Source of the DNA: Escherichia coli
Lineage (GTDB): Bacteria > Pseudomonadota > Gammaproteobacteria > Enterobacterales > Enterobacteriaceae
DNA length: 64,000 bases
Assembly (NCBI RefSeq): GCF_024223415.1
Contig: NZ_CP100500.1
Reading direction: 5' to 3' (one strand)
Shown: one piece after another, positions 38,415 through 44,064 of the stretch
Layout: every line of letters starts with the position of its first letter
Position numbering within the stretch: the first letter of the stretch is position 1
Notes under the pieces: model-generated
What the model saw: the letters and a program-made list of their open reading frames with translations, nothing else
What the model was told of the DNA's origin: nothing
Databases searched by the model: none
Program-made: the position numbers and the translations under genes

Positions 38415-39212
38415 ATGCTGGCAAAAGATAGGACTAACCTAAAGATTGAAGAAATACGGATGCATAAACATCATGAGATTCACAGGGTTAAGCCTCTTAT
38501 GCCAGCTTTATGTCGTATCCGTCAGGGAAAAAAAATTATCAATTGGGAGACGCATAGTCTAACTGTTGATAATAATCAGATAATATTATTTCCCTGTGGA
38601 TATGAATTTTATATTGCGAATTACCCAGAAGCAGGTCTTTATCTTGCAGAAATGCTTTATTATCCCATTGATCTAATTGAAAAGTTCCAAAATCTTTATG
38701 CGATAACCGATCAAATTCGTAACACGACAGGTTTCTGCTTACCTCAGAATCCCGAGTTAATATATTGTTGGGAGCAACTAAAAACATCTATTTCCCGAGG
38801 CTTCTCAACGCAAATTCAGGAACACTTAGCAATGGGCGTTCTACTTTCATTAGGAGCACATCATGTTAATTGTTTACTTTTATCAGATAGTAAACAATCA
38901 TTAATAAGTCGTTGTTATAACCTAATGCTATCCGAACCTGGAACAAAATGGACAGCAAACAAGGTAGCGAGATATCTCTACATTTCTGTTTCCACATTGC
39001 ATCGCCGTCTGGCAAGCGAGGGAGTAAGTTTTCAAAGTATATTGGACGACGTGAGGTTAAATAATGCGTTGTCTGCTATACAAACGACAGTAAAACCCAT
39101 CAGCGAGATTGCCAGGGAAAATGGTTACAAGTGTCCTTCTCGTTTTACTGAAAGGTTCCATAATCGTTTTAAGATAACACCAAGAGAGCTAAGAAAAGCG
39201 TCCAGAGAGTAA
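38415..39212 (+). CDS. ybcM: AraC/XylS-family transcriptional regulator YbcM (265 aa)
   Basis: C-terminal AraC HTH ([47 protein letters not shown]...[20 protein letters not shown]). Confidence 0.85.
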
Positions 39213-39503
39213 AAGTATTTTATGAAGGAGCAACAGCATAGATTTTTATTTTGGAAAATAAATACGGCATACTCAACCTATTGGAGCCTGAACAATCCGG
39301 TGACTTCTGCGCTAATCGGGGACGTTTATAAGCACATATAATTGATACTATCTTCCTCCATCACAATTTCAGAAATGCACGTGTGATTTTTTTGCATCCG
39401 GCGTTTGGACTATGTGGAGTTCAAGAGTGGGAAAGTTACAAGAGGTTGAGGGGATAATTAAAGGGATGCTTATGACATTAGATATCCGGATAGGTACGGA
39501 TAT

Positions 39504-39543
39504 CGTTGTTATTAAATCTAGTTCGTTGTTATTAAATCTAGTT
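39504..39543. repeat. Perfect 2-copy tandem direct repeat of a 20-bp unit (CGTTGTTATTAAATCTAGTT)
   Basis: Two adjacent identical 20-mers inside AT-rich non-coding DNA. Confidence 0.9.
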
Positions 39544-40175
39544 TATACGTTAAGATGCAGCTACAGCAGAAATTGCCACTGTTAATTTTTTCATCGTGAG
39601 CCTTTTATTTGAACTATTATTTAAAAATGATGTCACTGCACTACAAATATTCATCCAATCAATGAGATTATTTCAAGATGTAAGTTTTAGTTTCTCATTT
39701 AAATTGTGAAGTAGATCCCTATCTTTATCTGAACTGTTTCTATTGCACACAATGCATGACTATTTTGTGAACGAATATAAATTTGGTAGTTAAATTATAT
39801 TAAAGGTTGTTATTTATGATTGACTCATAATTTATTTATTTAATTTAAATAGCCTAGAAATAACCATGGAAATTATTTGCATGATGTTTGTTTAGATTTA
39901 TTAATGTAATTGAGGTGGTTTTATTTAATACGCAATATAGCGCCGCTTGATATTAGTTCTATTTTTTTTGCGTAAGATAGATGAGACAAACTGAGACGCA
40001 TAATGGTTTGCAAGGCTCTAATACTTTGATGTTGAGGATGTGATGGGGCATGTACGGGGCATAGTACAATGATGTCCATGCTGGTGTAGATAATCTCCAG
40101 GCTTATCCGGTGCGCCGTAAAACCCCGTCCTTCAGGGCAGGGATATAAGGCGTGGTTTTCCACCTGACCAGGTGT

Positions 40176-40595
40176 TTGCTGTTGTTCAATGTATTGGCGG
40201 ATGACGGATATTGGCGCACCTCCGCAGCTACTGGCAAAATAGCCAGGACTCCACAAAACGCCTTTGTAGTAATACCTGACTGCAATATCTGGTCGATCTC
40301 GTCGCAGTCACCTACCCGATACGCCTTTGAGGCTGTTTACCAGACTGGATATCGCCAGTTTGGGAGGATAGTTAATTAACAAATGGACGTGATCTGGTTC
40401 GCCATCCATTTCAACCAGTTCAGCTTCAAAATCAGCACATACATTTGAAAAGTAAGTGCGTAGTTTTTCTGTCGCGTCATGGTCAAAAATCTGACGTCGG
40501 TATCTGGTGACAAAGACCAGGTGAACATGCATCAGGAAAACACAATGCCTTCCACGCCGGATATCGGTTTCTTTTTTCACAGACCAAAGTATCAT
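40176..40595 (-). pseudogene. tnpA: tnpA (HUH Y1 transposase of IS200/IS605 family) interrupted by an in-frame TGA
   Basis: N-part MILWSVKKETDIRRGRHCVFLMHVHLVFVTRYRR...EPDHVHLL (HUH motif) ends at TGA 40308..40310; same frame continues LRRDRPDIAVRYYYKGVLWSPGYFASSCGGAPISVIRQYIEQQ (catalytic Tyr region). Confidence 0.75.
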
Positions 40596-40602
40596 TTGGC
40601 CT

Positions 40603-41811
40603 GTGAAACGACTACAAGCATTTAAATTCCAGTTAAGACCCGGTGGTCAACAGGAGCGTGAAATGAGGCGCTTCGCAGGCGCATGTCGTTTCGTTTTCAA
40701 TCGTGCTCTGGCACGTCAGAATGAGAATCATGAGGTCGGTAATAAATACATCCCTTACGGGAAAATGGCTTCCTGGCTGGTTGAGTGGAAAAATGCCACT
40801 GAAACGCAATGGCTTAAAGATGCCCCGTCACAGCCATTGCAACAGTCACTGAAAGACCTTGAGCGGGCTTACAAAAACTTCTTCCAGAATCGGGCTGCTT
40901 TTCCCCGATTCAAAAAGCGGGGACAGAATGATGTATTCCGCTACCCGCAGGGCGTTAAGCTCGATCAGGAAAACAGCCGTATTTTTCTGCCGAAACTGGG
41001 CTGGATGCGCTACCGGAACAGCCGTCAGGTCACGGGTGTTGTGAAAAATGTCACTGTCAGCCAGTCCTGCGGTAAGTGGTACATCAGTATTCAGACAGAA
41101 AGTGAAGTATCAACTCCGGTTCACCCTTCAGCATCAATGGTCGGGCTGGATGCTGGCGTGGCTAAACTCGCCACGCTGTCAGATGGCACAGTCTTTGAGC
41201 CTGTAAACAGTTTTCAGAAAAACCAGAAGAAGCTGGCGAGACTTCAGCGACAGTTAAGCCGCAAGGTCAAATTCAGCAACAACTGGCAGAAGCAGAAACG
41301 CAAAATACAGCGACTGCATTCCTGTATCGCAAATATCCGCAGGGACTACCTTCACAAAGTCACAACGACCGTCAGCAAAAACCACGCAATGATAGTCATT
41401 GAGGATTTGAAGGTCAGCAACATGTCAAAGTCAGCAGCGGGTACGGTCAGCCAGCCGGGGCGCAATGTCCGGGCAAAATCAGGTTTAAACCGTTCGATAC
41501 TGGATCAGGGCTGGTATGAAATGCGCCGCCAGCTTGAGTACAAGCAGCTCTGGCGTGGCGGTCAGGTGCTTGCTGTTCCGCCAGCGTACACAAGCCAGCG
41601 TTGCGCGTGCTGTGGTCATACAGAGAAAGAAAACCGCCTGTCACAAAGTAAATTCAGATGCCAGGTATGTGGATATACAGCGAACGCCGATGTAAATGGC
41701 GCTCGTAACATTTTAGCGGCGGGGCACGCCGTTCTTGCCTGTGGAGAGATGGTGCAGTCAGGCCGCCCGTTGAAGCAGGAACCCACCGAAATGATTCAGG
41801 CGACAGCCTGA
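40603..41811 (+). CDS. tnpB: TnpB (IS605 OrfB family RNA-guided endonuclease), apparently intact, 402 aa
   Basis: RuvC-I ([12 protein letters not shown]), RuvC-II ([11 protein letters not shown]), zinc finger CACCGH...CQVCG, RuvC-III ([10 protein letters not shown]). Confidence 0.85.
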
Positions 41812-41850
41812 ACGTAGCAGGGATCCTCGTCCTTCAGGGCGTGGAGGATG

Positions 41851-42522
41851 TCAACAAACAGGTTGAATTAACTCCGCGCCCTGGTTTTTGACATTACCTA
41901 CCGCGCGCGATACCGGGTGCCAGGTGAACTGGTTTGCTGGCACACAGCCGTTGGTAGCAATTTCTGATGCTTCTTTACCGCCAATCTCTTGCCGCATCCA
42001 TTCCTGTGCAGCTTCTGGCGACAGAACCAGCGGGCGGCGGTCATGAATATCTACCAGACCCTGGTCTGCTGCTGCAGTGACAATTAAAAATCCTTCGGCT
42101 TCGTCACCGCGCTCAAACGGTGTGCTACCTATCGCGGCCATAAAAACAGGTTGTCCATCAGCGCGATAGATAAAATAAGGCTGTTTTTTGTCGCCTTCTT
42201 TTTTCCACTCAAACCAGCCATCGGCAAAACAGATTGCCCGACCATGTTGCCAGAGCGGTTTAAACATACGACTGGTGGCCGCAGTTTCTACGCGGGCGTT
42301 AATCAGCGGCGGTTTATCCCACCATCCGGGAGCATATCCCCAGAAAACCGGATCCAGATGAAGGTGTTCATCACGTTCACTGAGCAGAAGAACTTTGGTT
42401 CCCGGCGCGACGTTGTATCTGCCAATGGGTTCGGGATCGTAGGGAATATCGCGTTCAATATCTTCCGCGAGAAGCGCAAGGTAATCTTCACGCGTTTGGG
42501 ATTGGGCAAAGCGTCCACACAT
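41851..42522 (-). CDS. yedK: SRAP-family abasic-site processing protein YedK (223 aa)
   Basis: MCGRFAQSQTREDYLALLAEDIERDIPYDPEPIGRYNVAPGTKV..., N-terminal Cys2 nucleophile. Confidence 0.9.
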   Translation of the reverse strand: MCGRFAQSQTREDYLALLAEDIERDIPYDPEPIGRYNVAPGTKVLLLSERDEHLHLDPVFWGYAPGWWDKPPLINARVETAATSRMFKPLWQHGRAICFADGWFEWKKEGDKKQPYFIYRADGQPVFMAAIGSTPFERGDEAEGFLIVTAAADQGLVDIHDRRPLVLSPEAAQEWMRQEIGGKEASEIATNGCVPANQFTWHPVSRAVGNVKNQGAELIQPVC

Positions 42523-42628
42523 AGAAACCTCCTGAGATCATACTGAAAAGAATAGGAGAGGGGGCGGGTAAAATCTATGTGTCAGAGGCAACGATGTTCC
42601 CGCTGTGGGCCACAGCGGGAATGAGGGA

Positions 42629-42862
42629 TTACTTCTGAATTAAATAACGAATGGTCGGCCCGTCTTGCTGAATATCCAGCACCGTATAGCCGTGATTACG
42701 CGCATCCAGTGGAATATTATTGATCGACTGTGGACAGTCGCTCACCACTTCCAGGATTTCCCCTTTTTTTAACTGCGGCATCGCCTCAAGAGTTGCGACT
42801 GCCGGATAAGGGCAGGGTTCACCCACCATATCAAGGCGGTAATCAGGAACGATATTTTTCAT
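42629..42862 (-). CDS. yedF: TusA-like sulfurtransferase-fold protein YedF (77 aa)
   Basis: MKNIVPDYRLDMVGEPCPYPAVATLEAMPQLKKGEILEVVSDCPQSINNIPLDARNHGYTVLDIQQDGPTIRYLIQK (CPxP motif). Confidence 0.9.
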   Translation of the reverse strand: MKNIVPDYRLDMVGEPCPYPAVATLEAMPQLKKGEILEVVSDCPQSINNIPLDARNHGYTVLDIQQDGPTIRYLIQK

Positions 42863-44064
42863 GCGATCTCCTTAGCAGTCTGCGGTGCCGCACGGCGGAA
42901 GAAGCGTTTTTCCCAGCCGATAATCAACATCAGCGCAGTAAACAACAGCAAATATGTCACCAGCAGGCCACCCATCGGGCCAAAGGTTTTCAGCAGGTTG
43001 ATTTTGTCCCAGTCGGTGGCCAGCGCCGGAGCGAAATCATCCCAGTAATACGCCAGAATCGTCGAGCCGATCACATTGCCCAGACCGACCCACCAGTAGT
43101 GCACCTGGCCTTCTACCGCGCGGTACATCCAGCCGGTTTCGCAGCCGCCTGCCAGCACGATGCCAAAACCAAACAGTAAACCACCAATTACCGCGTTTGG
43201 TCCCGCCCACATGATTTTGGGTTCAACGCCTAACTGTACGTAACTGAAGATCCCGATGGCACTCACCGCCATACCGATAATGATTGCTTTCGCCATATGG
43301 GTACGTCCGGTGATCCACATATCGCGGAACGCCGAAGTAAAGCAGATTTGCGCACGTTCAATCAGTAAACCAAAGCCGACGCCAAACAGCATTGCCAGCC
43401 CCAGTTTGGGTTGGTTCATCGCCGTGAGCAGCGCCCAGCCCAGCATGCCGAAAAAGACCAGCATCCCGAGACGAAAACGACGCCGCGCCTGATCCGGTTT
43501 TTGCGTCAGCGGTGAGGCGGCAGAAACTTTCTGCATTTTCACGGGAATACGGAAGATGGGCAGCAGGGTAAAGCGCGCGCCAAACCATGAACCAATGGCC
43601 GTGGCGATGGCAAAGAACCAGGCATGCAGCGAGAACTGAGGAATGCCGGTAAAGAACGCCGCCAGGTTACAGCCCATTGCCAGACGCGCGCCAAAACCGG
43701 CGATAATGCCGCCAATAATGGCCTGCATAATGCGGATACGGCTGCGCGGCATGCGCAGTTTGACATTGTTGGCCCACAGCGCTGCGGCAAAGCAGCCGCC
43801 AAACATGCCGAGGATCATCATCCCGTCGATGCGGGTTAATGGCGATCCTTCCAGATGGATAATTTTAAAATAACCCCACTCTTCAGCATGGACGCCAAAC
43901 AGCTGCAGGAGCTGACCGCCCCAACGGGTAAATTCACCCGTGACAGCCCAAAAGGTGCCAGTAATGCCAAAATAGTAAGTGGAGAGAATACCCGCCGCGA
44001 TGACCGCAGGGATGGGTGCCCAGAATTTAATCAACCAGGCGTGTTTGAATTGCTGCCATGACAT
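42859..44064 (-). CDS. yedE: YedE/YeeE-family inner-membrane transporter (401 aa)
   Basis: MSWQQFKHAWLIKFWAPIPAVIAAGILSTYYFGITGTFWAVTGEF..., overlaps yedF by 4 nt. Confidence 0.85.
   Translation of the reverse strand: MSWQQFKHAWLIKFWAPIPAVIAAGILSTYYFGITGTFWAVTGEFTRWGGQLLQLFGVHAEEWGYFKIIHLEGSPLTRIDGMMILGMFGGCFAAALWANNVKLRMPRSRIRIMQAIIGGIIAGFGARLAMGCNLAAFFTGIPQFSLHAWFFAIATAIGSWFGARFTLLPIFRIPVKMQKVSAASPLTQKPDQARRRFRLGMLVFFGMLGWALLTAMNQPKLGLAMLFGVGFGLLIERAQICFTSAFRDMWITGRTHMAKAIIIGMAVSAIGIFSYVQLGVEPKIMWAGPNAVIGGLLFGFGIVLAGGCETGWMYRAVEGQVHYWWVGLGNVIGSTILAYYWDDFAPALATDWDKINLLKTFGPMGGLLVTYLLLFTALMLIIGWEKRFFRRAAPQTAKEIA

What the first reader, a model, noticed from the sequence alone, without database searches (positions are those of the whole stretch)
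40100..41850. IS200/IS605-family element whose right-end hairpin directly abuts the yedK stop codon
The left and right subterminal imperfect hairpins (40123..40142 and 41825..41847) share the core CGTCCTTCAGGGC, typical of single-strand transposons of this family, and bracket divergent tnpA and tnpB. The right hairpin ends 3 nt before the yedK stop codon (41851..41853 on the opposite strand). The element therefore sits precisely at a gene end, as expected for insertion 3' of a short target motif. Exact tips could not be determined by eye.
Basis: partly seen in the sequence, partly recalled or inferred. Interest (0 to 1): 0.5.

Follow-up and report, generated by a model that had tools for sequence, protein, structure and literature searches.

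The report
IS609 copy inside yedK stop codon
This is an ordinary, already catalogued E. coli insertion sequence (IS609) with a dead transposase gene and an intact RNA-guided nuclease gene. It landed inside the stop codon of yedK and supplies a replacement stop codon from its own right tip.

Summary
The 13-nt core CGTCCTTCAGGGC occurs exactly twice in the 64-kb window, at 40126 and 41828 (0.06 expected), inside two subterminal hairpins that bracket divergent tnpA and tnpB.

The element is IS609, of the IS200/IS605 family. It is 1748 bp and 98.5% identical to the E. coli K-12 copy.

Two empty sites (…TTAT|CAAACAGG…) fix the tips at 40107 and 41854. There is no target duplication, and TTAT (40103-40106) abuts the left end.

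The right hairpin is 41825-41844 and the element runs 10 nt further. The yedK stop codon (41851-41853) therefore lies inside the IS.

The IS split yedK's native stop (TG|A). The right tip …TCAA then gives TGT-TGA, so YedK gains one Cys (223 aa against 222).

This copy is non-autonomous:
- tnpA has a nonsense codon at 40308-40310 and has lost its own stop.
- Each hairpin carries one mismatch.

tnpB (402 aa, catalytic D183/E267/D363) is intact. A covariation-supported guide-RNA (omega RNA) scaffold spans 41708-41854. It would be followed by a guide matching the empty site.

The same insertion is present in 1093 of 5426 complete E. coli genomes.

This is a known element and of low interest. One side observation: 6-7 of 28 related insertion sites use the same stop-codon geometry.

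The parts
40103..40106 (+). TTAT, the target tetranucleotide (left cleavage site). It is the predicted transposon-adjacent motif (TAM) for TnpB. It is flanking DNA, not part of the IS.
   Evidence: Empty sites L002 and L003 read ...GGCTTAT|CAAACAGG. TTAT lies immediately 5' of the left tip at 10 of 10 independent E. coli and plasmid sites.
40107..41854 (+). IS609 copy, 1748 bp, with no terminal inverted repeats and no target-site duplication.
   Evidence: BLAST boundaries of copies at other loci fall at 40103 and 41854, and yedK-only matches start at 41855. Empty sites confirm the tips. There are 27 differences in 1748 bp against the K-12 copy (98.46%).
40119..40122 (+). AAAA, the predicted left guide tetranucleotide, immediately 5' of the left hairpin foot.
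   Evidence: By analogy with IS608, where the guide AAAG reads the target TTAC (PMC3201880). Relatives with a TTAC target carry AAAG here in 3 of 4 cases. Those with TTAT carry AAAA.
40123..40142 (+). Left subterminal imperfect palindrome CCCCGTCC-TTCA-GGGCAGGG. This copy has G>A at 40139, giving a C.A mismatch.
   Evidence: Other copies have G at 40139.
40164..40595 (-). tnpA pseudogene (Y1 HUH transposase). It has an in-frame TGA at 40308-40310 (TTA in intact copies). Its own stop at 40164-40166 is changed from TAG to CAG.
   Evidence: Pfam Y1_Tnp matches both halves. PGAP annotates 'internal stop' in L001. Codon comparison across 11 copies is. Relatives have CTA (TAG) at the stop position.
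40603..41811 (+). tnpB (insQ-type RNA-guided endonuclease), intact at 402 aa with a GTG start. RuvC residues are D183, E267 and D363. The zinc-finger cysteines are present.
   Evidence: Pfam hits. E = 5.7e-55 to ISDra2 TnpB 8bf8, with the catalytic positions aligned. The gene is intact in 12 of 12 copies, with pairwise dN/dS of 0.09-0.57.
41708..41854 (+). Predicted guide-RNA (omega RNA / reRNA) scaffold. It overlaps the 3' end of tnpB and the right end. A long-range helix pairs 41708-41713 with 41846-41851.
   Evidence: RNAalifold on 17 relatives gives 49 pairs that are 97% paired. 13 pairs have compensatory changes against 4.0 +/- 1.1 in shuffles (0 of 500) and 1-5 in slid controls. There are sub-threshold Rfam hits to HgcC and RAGATH-18.
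41821..41824 (+). GGAT, the predicted right guide tetranucleotide, 5' of the right hairpin foot. It is GAAT in most relatives.
   Evidence: Placed by register with the left end. The position rule comes from IS608 (PMC3201880).
41825..41844 (+). Right subterminal imperfect palindrome CCTCGTCC-TTCA-GGGCGTGG. This copy has T at 41827, where A or C restores the pair in other copies.
   Evidence: The third stem pair is U.G in 6, A-U in 5 and C-G in 5 sequences; it is broken in only one sequence, this one.
41851..41854 (+). TCAA, the right cleavage site and right tip of the IS. Positions 41851-41853 are the present yedK stop codon (TGA on the - strand).
   Evidence: GGAGGATGTCAA| is invariant in 17 relatives, and conservation collapses immediately after it. 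IS608 uses the same TCAA, 10 nt 3' of the hairpin foot.
41855..41874 (+). Predicted guide segment of the omega RNA (CAAACAGGTTGAATTAACTC). It is also the last codons of yedK on the other strand.
   Evidence: This is flanking sequence directly 3' of the right tip. It is identical to the sequence following TTAT in empty sites L002 and L003. The guide role is inferred from the TnpB family.
41851..42522 (-). yedK (SRAP / SOS-response-associated peptidase), 223 aa, ending ...QPVC*. The third base of the Cys codon and the whole stop codon come from the IS.
   Evidence: Pfam SRAP, E = 3e-52. The empty-site yedK is 669 nt, or 222 aa. The junction was read.

Best explanation
Window 40107-41854 is a non-autonomous copy of the known E. 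coli insertion sequence IS609 (IS200/IS605 family).

**How it arrived.** It arrived by single-strand 'peel-and-paste' insertion 3' of a TTAT on the + strand. That TTAT is the complement of the A-TAA that closes yedK. The IS therefore entered between the 2nd and 3rd base of the yedK stop codon (TG|A). Its right tip, 5'-TCAA-3', reads T-TGA on the yedK strand. This makes a Cys codon followed by a new stop, so YedK is intact plus one residue.

**Why this copy is stuck.** Its tnpA is inactivated by a nonsense codon upstream of the catalytic tyrosine region and by loss of its own stop. Each end hairpin also carries a mismatch.

**What still works.** Its tnpB is intact. Together with a structured RNA transcribed through the right end into yedK, TnpB most likely forms an RNA-guided nuclease. 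Its predicted target is the empty allele (TTAT followed by CAAACAGGTTGAATTA...). Cutting that allele would favour retention of the IS through recombinational repair.

**Shown versus inferred.** Shown here: identity, tips, target, stop-codon geometry, tnpA lesions, tnpB integrity and RNA covariation. Inferred from the family: the transposition chemistry, expression of the omega RNA, and TnpB cleavage of the empty site.
For: **Tips and lack of duplication.**
- Copies at other loci match only up to 41854 and from 40103. yedK-only matches start at 41855.
- Two empty sites in different left-flank contexts both read TTAT|CAAACAGG.

**Identity.**
- All full-length copies compared are 1748 bp and 98.0-98.5% identical to this one.
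- PGAP names the intact transposase 'IS609 family'.
- The K-12 copy is called IS609 in the literature (PMC5009759).

**Target.**
- TTAT is present at 10 of 10 sites.
- The fourth target base (T or C) co-varies with the fourth guide base (A or G) in relatives. This is the IS608 rule (PMC3201880).

**Stop-codon geometry.**. yedK is 222 aa in the empty site and 223 aa in the occupied site.

**tnpA lesions.**

**tnpB.**
- Intact in 12 of 12 copies, with dN/dS 0.09-0.57.
- The catalytic D/E/D residues align with ISDra2 TnpB.

**RNA structure.** 13 compensatory pairs against 4.0 +/- 1.1 in shuffles.

**Family mechanism.** TnpB acts as a homing nuclease that cleaves vacant sites (10.1101/2023.03.14.532601 and 10.1101/2023.11.20.567912, abstracts).

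**Population.** The same insertion occurs in 1093 of 5426 complete genomes.
Against: - No Rfam family reaches its gathering score. HgcC scores 19 against 50 bits and RAGATH-18 scores 25 against 45 bits.
- No sigma-70-like promoter for the omega RNA was found by the simple scan.
- Nothing here shows RNA expression or nuclease activity.
- With tnpA dead there is no excision in cis, so a retention role for TnpB needs either TnpA supplied in trans or incoming empty alleles. Neither was shown.
- The ISfinder reference sequence could not be consulted, so the name rests on PGAP and K-12 usage.
Confidence: 0.87

Rival explanations
1. The copy is still an autonomous, active IS. The TGA at tnpA codon 96 is read through or otherwise tolerated, and the extended TnpA is functional.
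For: The same TGA is present in copies at two different loci, yedK and K-12 ydcO. That would fit a tolerated variant that still moved. Copies with the CAG stop loss occur at many loci.
Against: - Intact copies have TTA (Leu) at this codon, and PGAP flags it as an internal stop.
- The truncation removes the C-terminal third of the Y1_Tnp domain.
- The K-12 copy with the same lesion gave 0 new insertions out of 758 IS insertion events in mutation-accumulation lines (PMC5009759).
- Both hairpins of this copy carry mismatches.
- A shared TGA is also explained by trans-mobilisation or by gene conversion.
Confidence: 0.04
2. The two hairpins are REP elements or transcription terminators unrelated to the IS, and the IS ends lie elsewhere.
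For: Hairpins next to gene ends are typical of terminators. The junction TTATCCGG loosely resembles part of a REP sequence (from memory only).
Against: - Both hairpins travel with the 1748-bp unit to at least 10 different loci and into other genera.
- Neither is followed by a T run, and neither is called by the terminator scan.
- The core occurs nowhere else in the 64-kb window.
- Empty sites lack both hairpins.
Confidence: 0.01
3. The IS did not insert at yedK. It came in as the edge of the emrE-ybcL-ybcM island, so the junction with yedK is an island boundary.
For: The left flank is an AT-rich (33% GC) variable island that replaces yedL and its neighbours of other strains.
Against: - A genome with the same island and the same left flank has no IS and reads TTAT|CAAAC (L003).
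- A genome without the island has the same 17 nt downstream of yedK and the same empty junction (L002).
- The IS is therefore an independent, precise insertion into a site shared by both contexts.
Confidence: 0.03
4. tnpB and its RNA at this locus are kept for a host function rather than for IS maintenance. One example: the RNA's 3' guide segment is antisense to the last 20 nt of yedK mRNA and modulates yedK.
For: - tnpB is intact at 10 of 10 sites (12 of 12 copies), while tnpA is broken or missing at most sites and intact in only 2 of the copies examined.
- The insertion is retained in 20% of genomes.
- The guide segment is complementary to yedK mRNA by construction.
Against: - The catalytic residues are intact, unlike domesticated TnpB regulators (PMC10705468).
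- tnpB is retained equally at sites with quite different neighbours.
- A high ratio of tnpB to tnpA is a general property of the family.
- There are no expression data.
Confidence: 0.06

Closest known systems
IS609 of Escherichia coli (K-12 copy between ydcL and ydcO, genes insP/insQ)
   Same: - Same length, 1748 bp.
- 98.46% nucleotide identity.
- Same tips (CCGGTGCGCC... and ...GGAGGATGTCAA) and the same TTAT target.
- Same divergent tnpA and tnpB.
- The same TGA at tnpA codon 96.
- The same use of the right-tip TGA as the stop of a convergent gene (ydcO).
   Different: - It sits at a different locus (yedK).
- There are 27 substitutions, including one in each hairpin (40139 G>A and 41827 A>T).
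- This insertion is polymorphic, present in 20% of complete genomes.
IS608 of Helicobacter pylori (mechanistic reference for the family)
   Same: - Subterminal imperfect palindromes at both ends.
- Insertion 3' of a tetranucleotide that abuts the left end.
- Right cleavage site TCAA, 10 nt 3' of the right hairpin foot.
- A guide tetranucleotide 5' of each hairpin foot: AAAG for TTAC there, AAAA for TTAT here (PMC3201880).
   Different: - The target is TTAT rather than TTAC.
- The spacing from the left cleavage site to the hairpin is 16 nt rather than 19 nt.
- tnpA and tnpB are divergent here.
ISDra2 TnpB and its omega RNA (Deinococcus radiodurans)
   Same: - TnpB is homologous over its full length (E = 5.7e-55), with the RuvC D/E/D residues and the zinc finger conserved.
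- A structured RNA overlaps the 3' end of tnpB and the right end.
- The guide is taken from the flank directly after the right tip.
   Different: - The TAM would be TTAT rather than TTGAT (the ISDra2 TAM is quoted from memory).
- Activity of the IS609 enzyme on its native target was not examined here. IS609 TnpB is mentioned only as one of nine purified candidates in PMC12781874.
tnpA-less derivatives of the same element (IS1341-like, on P1-type plasmids)
   Same: Same left hairpin, tnpB and right end. Same TTAT target. Same stop-codon supply to a convergent gene, the P1 head-processing gene (L013).
   Different: They are 1336 bp with tnpA deleted outright. The window copy keeps a full-length but broken tnpA.

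Membership tests
IS200/IS605 family | Encodes a Y1 (HUH) transposase TnpA | tested here: met
   Pfam PF01797 matches both halves of the ORF (E = 4.7e-26 and 4.3e-8). The gene is a pseudogene in this copy.
IS200/IS605 family | Subterminal imperfect palindromes at both ends and no terminal inverted repeats | tested here: met
   The hairpins are at 40123-40142 and 41825-41844 and share a 13-nt core in direct orientation. Compensatory changes occur in relatives.
IS200/IS605 family | Insertion 3' of a specific tetra- or pentanucleotide that abuts the left end, with no target-site duplication | tested here: met
   The empty sites read TTAT|CAAAC. TTAT is present at 10 of 10 sites, and the flanks differ on the right with no repeat.
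IS200/IS605 family | Cleavage sites read by guide tetranucleotides 5' of the hairpin feet | tested here: inconclusive
   Covariation of TTAT with AAAA and of TTAC with AAAG fits the rule (3 of 4 TTAC sites). The right tip TCAA matches IS608.
IS200/IS605 family | Single-strand peel-and-paste transposition | not testable with these tools
   Inferred from the family only.
IS609 (as an ISfinder isoform, >95% DNA identity) | At least 95% nucleotide identity over full length to the named element | tested here: met
   98.46% identity to the K-12 copy, which the literature calls IS609. PGAP labels the intact TnpA 'IS609 family'. The ISfinder reference itself was not available.
TnpB RNA-guided nuclease with omega RNA | RuvC D-E-D catalytic triad and zinc-finger (TNB) domain | tested here: met
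   D183, E267 and D363 align with the catalytic positions of ISDra2 TnpB. CxxC motifs lie at 334-337 and 353-356. Pfam OrfB_IS605 and Cas12f1-like_TNB both match.
TnpB RNA-guided nuclease with omega RNA | Conserved structured RNA spanning the tnpB 3' end and the right end, terminating at the transposon boundary | tested here: met
   49 pairs, 97% paired, with 13 compensatory pairs against 4.0 +/- 1.1 in shuffles. Conservation ends exactly at 41854. Rfam gives only sub-threshold hits.
TnpB RNA-guided nuclease with omega RNA | TAM-dependent, guide-dependent DNA cleavage | not testable with these tools
   The predicted TAM is TTAT and the predicted guide is CAAACAGGTTGAATTAACTC. No assay was possible.

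The most novel reading that the evidence does not exclude
IS609-type elements survive disproportionately at ochre-type stop codons of convergent genes, because their chemistry makes such insertions nearly silent.

**Geometry.** The target TTAT is the complement of A-TAA. The obligatory right tip TCAA reads T-TGA on the other strand. A gene ending NNA-TAA (or TGA-TAA, or TAA-TAA) therefore becomes NNT-TGA.

**Observed.** 6-7 of 28 independent sites have exactly this geometry. They are yedK, ydcO, yfeD, the P1 pro gene, Pantoea malQ, a Serratia phnP-like gene, and one unassigned ORF.

**Expected.**
- 1.7% of all TTAT sites in the window have this geometry.
- About 21% do if only stop-neutral sites and sites between convergent genes are tolerated.

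The novel reading is that this is a systematic, previously unremarked niche of the family. It would place the TnpB guide inside conserved coding sequence. The alternative is that it is only a by-product of purifying selection.
Probability: 0.35. Interest if true: 0.4.

Novelty: already known. Interest (0 to 1): 0.2.

Why it matters
There is little new here. IS609 is catalogued, and this very insertion is annotated by RefSeq in more than a thousand genomes.

The practical value lies in four points:
- **Annotation.** The yedK stop codon and the last base of its final codon are IS-derived. The element's exact limits are 40107-41854.
- **Strain marker.** The insertion is a clean presence/absence marker, found in 20% of complete E. 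coli genomes.
- **Testable prediction.** The TAM and guide pair for the native IS609 TnpB is TTAT plus CAAACAGGTTGAATTA.
- **Small generalisation.** The family's end chemistry lets it sit in stop codons of convergent genes without harming them.

Tried and rejected
- **Rfam scan of 39000-43000 at E <= 1.** It gave only sub-threshold hits to HgcC and RAGATH-18. I used these as a lead, not as evidence.
- **Single-sequence DNA folding of both ends.** I relied on comparative evidence instead.
- **Inverted repeats between the right tip with its flank and the yedK 3' coding region.** These are 41848-41862 with 41880-41894, and 41835-41846 with 41872-41883. They are not nested. They are no stronger than many other 12-16-nt matches in the same output, so I judged them chance.
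- **Dcm-site deamination as the cause of the recurrent TAG/CAG polymorphism at tnpA codon 144.** Rejected on reading the sequence: the C is in TCAGG, not in CCWGG.
- **The 14-bp palindrome across the divergent start codons (40575-40588 and 40595-40608).** It is not conserved in relatives at 80-85% identity, so I did not pursue it as a regulatory element.
- **Promoter scan for an omega RNA promoter.** Nothing was found above the shuffle expectation.
- **Literature search for IS609 TnpB function.** The only hit is one mention as a purified candidate.
- **Literature search on stop-codon insertion.** The search failed on term syntax and I did not repeat it.
Full report
**1. What is in the sequence**

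The region holds two divergent ORFs 7 bp apart.
- On the - strand, a Y1/HUH transposase frame runs from 40595 downwards. Pfam Y1_Tnp matches both halves (E = 4.7e-26 and 4.3e-8). An in-frame TGA interrupts it.
- On the + strand, a 402-aa ORF lies at 40603-41811. It carries the HTH_OrfB_IS605, OrfB_IS605 and Cas12f1-like TNB domains.

Downstream, on the - strand, is yedK at 41851-42522 (Pfam SRAP, E = 3e-52).

Shuffles give 0.06 expected. The two ends share a 21-nt direct repeat.

**2. Exact limits and target**

BLAST of the two ends against 5426 complete E. coli genomes gave these boundaries:
- Copies at other loci match from window 40103 (some from 40097 or 40102) and up to 41854.
- yedK-only matches begin at 41855.

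Two genomes without the element were read directly. One has yedL downstream of yedK. The other has the same ybcM-side left flank as the window. Both read ...CTCCAGGCTTAT|CAAACAGGTTGAATTAAC....

It follows that:
- the element is 40107-41854, 1748 bp;
- TTAT (40103-40106) is flanking target DNA;
- there is no target-site duplication.

At ten independent sites the left tip CCGGTGCGCC is always preceded by TTAT, and the right tip is always ...GGAGGATGTCAA. The sites are eight chromosomal loci and two plasmids.

**3. Name**

The full-length copies compared (yedK, ydcO in K-12/DH1, ytfA, yoaG, yfeD) are all 1748 bp and 98.0-98.5% identical to the window copy. PGAP names the intact transposase of one of them an 'IS200/IS605-like element IS609 family transposase'. 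The K-12 copy is listed as IS609 in the literature (PMC5009759). ISfinder could not be queried, so the name rests on these sources.

**4.

In the empty site the yedK strand reads CCT GTT TG|A TAA, that is ...P V stop. The IS entered between the second and third base of the stop codon. The right tip 5'-TCAA-3' reads TTGA on the yedK strand, so the occupied allele reads CCT GTT TGT TGA, that is ...P V C stop.

Consistent with this, yedK is 669 nt (222 aa) in the empty site and 672 nt (223 aa) here.

The stop codon at 41851-41853 is therefore inside the IS, not 3 nt beyond it.

The right hairpin is 41825-41844, by register with the left one and by covariation. It is followed by 10 nt (AGGATGTCAA) to the tip. 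IS608 has the same 10-nt spacing and the same TCAA (PMC3201880).

Neither hairpin is followed by a T run, and neither is called by the terminator scan. Both are absent from the empty sites. This excludes the REP or terminator alternative.

**5. State of this copy**

- **tnpA** carries TGA at 40308-40310 (codon 96), where intact copies have TTA. The K-12 copy shares this lesion. It also carries CAG instead of TAG at its natural stop (40164-40166), so the frame runs out through the left end to 39921.
- **The stop-loss is derived.** Relatives in other genera almost all have the TAG at the natural stop position.
- **The left hairpin** has G>A at 40139, giving a C.A mismatch.
- **The right hairpin** has T at 41827, where A or C pairs in other copies. 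The window is the only one of 17 sequences with that pair broken.

IS609 in K-12 produced none of the 758 new insertions seen in mutation-accumulation lines (PMC5009759). This copy is best described as a fixed, non-autonomous fossil.

**6. tnpB and its RNA**

tnpB is intact (402 aa) in 12 of 12 copies examined. This includes three derivatives in which tnpA is truncated or deleted. Pairwise dN/dS is 0.09-0.57. Among the copies examined, tnpA is intact in only two, L005 and L010.

The protein aligns over its full length with ISDra2 TnpB (8bf8, E = 5.7e-55). D183, E267 and D363 fall at the catalytic positions, and the zinc-finger cysteines are present.

I aligned the last ~200 nt of the element plus 20 nt of flank from 17 relatives. 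They include Escherichia, Citrobacter, Serratia, Morganella, Klebsiella and Pantoea, plus more distant proteobacteria. The results are:
- Conservation runs up to GTCAA and collapses immediately after it.
- The consensus structure has 49 pairs that are 97% paired.
- 13 pairs have compensatory changes, against 4.0 +/- 1.1 in column shuffles (0 of 500) and 1-5 when partners are slid.
- The structure includes a long-range helix, 41708-41713 with 41846-41851, that closes the scaffold at the transposon end.

Rfam gives only sub-threshold hits to HgcC and RAGATH-18, both known to be TnpB-associated RNAs (PMC11061315).

By the family mechanism, TnpB-omega RNA cuts the vacant site and repair restores the element (10.1101/2023.03.14.532601 and 10.1101/2023.11.20.567912). 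The guide here would be CAAACAGGTTGAATTAACTC and the TAM would be TTAT. That is exactly the empty yedK allele seen in L002 and L003. This step is inferred, not shown.

**7. Guide rule**

In IS608 the cleavage sites are read by tetranucleotides 5' of the hairpin feet, with AAAG reading TTAC. Here AAAA (40119-40122) precedes the left hairpin and the target is TTAT. Among relatives, three of four elements sitting next to TTAC carry AAAG, and those next to TTAT carry AAAA. This is independent comparative support that the hairpins and tips are the functional transposon ends.

**8. Population**

A place covering at least 80% of window 39900-42100 requires the IS contiguous with flanking DNA. Such a place exists in 1093 of 5426 complete genomes, at 99.5-99.9% identity in the listed rows. 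Sequence matching the IS609 left end is present in 4994 genomes, with a median of 2 and a maximum of 7 places per genome.

**9. Side observation**

The stop-codon trick is not unique to yedK. PGAP places the end of ydcO, yfeD and a P1-type head-processing gene at the same offset, tnpB stop + 40. Reconstruction gives these native ends:
- ydcO: TA|A-TAA
- yfeD: GC|A-TAA
- P1 pro: AA|A-TAA

In other genera the same holds for malQ in Pantoea, for a metallo-beta-lactamase-fold (phnP-like) gene in Serratia, and possibly for one unassigned 103-aa ORF. That is 6-7 of 28 sites.

In the window with the IS removed, 12 of 690 TTAT sites (1.7%) have this geometry. If only stop-neutral sites plus sites between convergent genes are tolerated, the expectation rises to 12 of 56, or 21%. 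Most of the excess can therefore be explained by purifying selection acting on a fortunate geometry. TCAA is required for cleavage anyway, so no special adaptation need be invoked.

**10. Verdict**

The element is a known IS (IS609). The copy is defective for transposition but keeps an apparently functional TnpB and guide-RNA module. It sits inside the yedK stop codon, not next to it. Novelty: already known. Interest: low.

Noticed in passing
window 41851-41854; L004 4249-4252; L007 4249-4252; L013 2752-2755; L029 3749-3752; L053 1725-1728: The right tip TCAA of IS609-type elements serves as the stop codon (TGA) of a convergent gene at 6-7 of 28 independent sites. The genes are yedK, ydcO, yfeD, P1 pro, malQ, a phnP-like gene and one unassigned ORF. 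Only 1.7% of TTAT sites in the window have that geometry.
   Followed up: partly
window 40164-40166 (tnpA codon 144): TAG and CAG alternate at the natural tnpA stop, even within one locus. At yedK the window has CAG and L001 has TAG. At yoaG, L006 and L012 have CAG and L010 has TAG. With CAG the frame reads out through the left end into flanking DNA. Gene conversion between copies is a possible cause.
   Followed up: partly
window 40308-40310: The same nonsense codon (TGA for TTA at tnpA codon 96) is present in copies at two different loci, yedK and K-12 ydcO. This implies trans-mobilisation of an already dead copy, or gene conversion.
   Followed up: no
window 40575-40608: A 14-bp inverted repeat (TTTCACAGACCAAA / TTTGGCCTGTGAAA, 6-nt spacer) spans the divergent tnpA and tnpB start codons. 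It is present in E. coli copies but not conserved in relatives at 80-85% protein identity. In those relatives the tnpA ATG aligns with window 40578-40580 (GTG here), so the true tnpA start may be 40580 rather than 40595.
   Followed up: partly
window 39524-39553 (compared with L003 1214-2445): Relative to a genome with the same emrE-ybcL-ybcM island, the window lacks about 1.23 kb containing an ompC/nmpC-like porin gene between ybcM and yedK. About 30 unmatched nt sit at the junction.
   Followed up: partly
window 38415-40106: The DNA left of the IS is a 33% GC variable island. Its emrE, ybcL and ybcM genes are homologues of DLP12-prophage-region genes. It replaces yedL and its neighbours of other strains. 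The island boundary lies about 17 nt downstream of the yedK stop.
   Followed up: partly
L008 1256-2755; L013 and L014 1420-2755: Shorter derivatives of the same element exist that keep the left hairpin, tnpB and the right end. One is 1500 bp with a truncated tnpA (ST131 chromosome, near hslO). Two are 1336 bp with no tnpA, on P1-like and other plasmids. In the plasmid copies tnpB starts with ATG instead of GTG.
   Followed up: partly
window 41835-41894: The right end with the first 8 nt of flank, and the yedK 3' coding sequence, contain two crossed complementary segments. They are 41848-41862 with 41880-41894 (13 of 15) and 41835-41846 with 41872-41883 (11 of 12). This is probably chance, though it could fold in the yedK mRNA or in the omega RNA guide region.
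   Followed up: no
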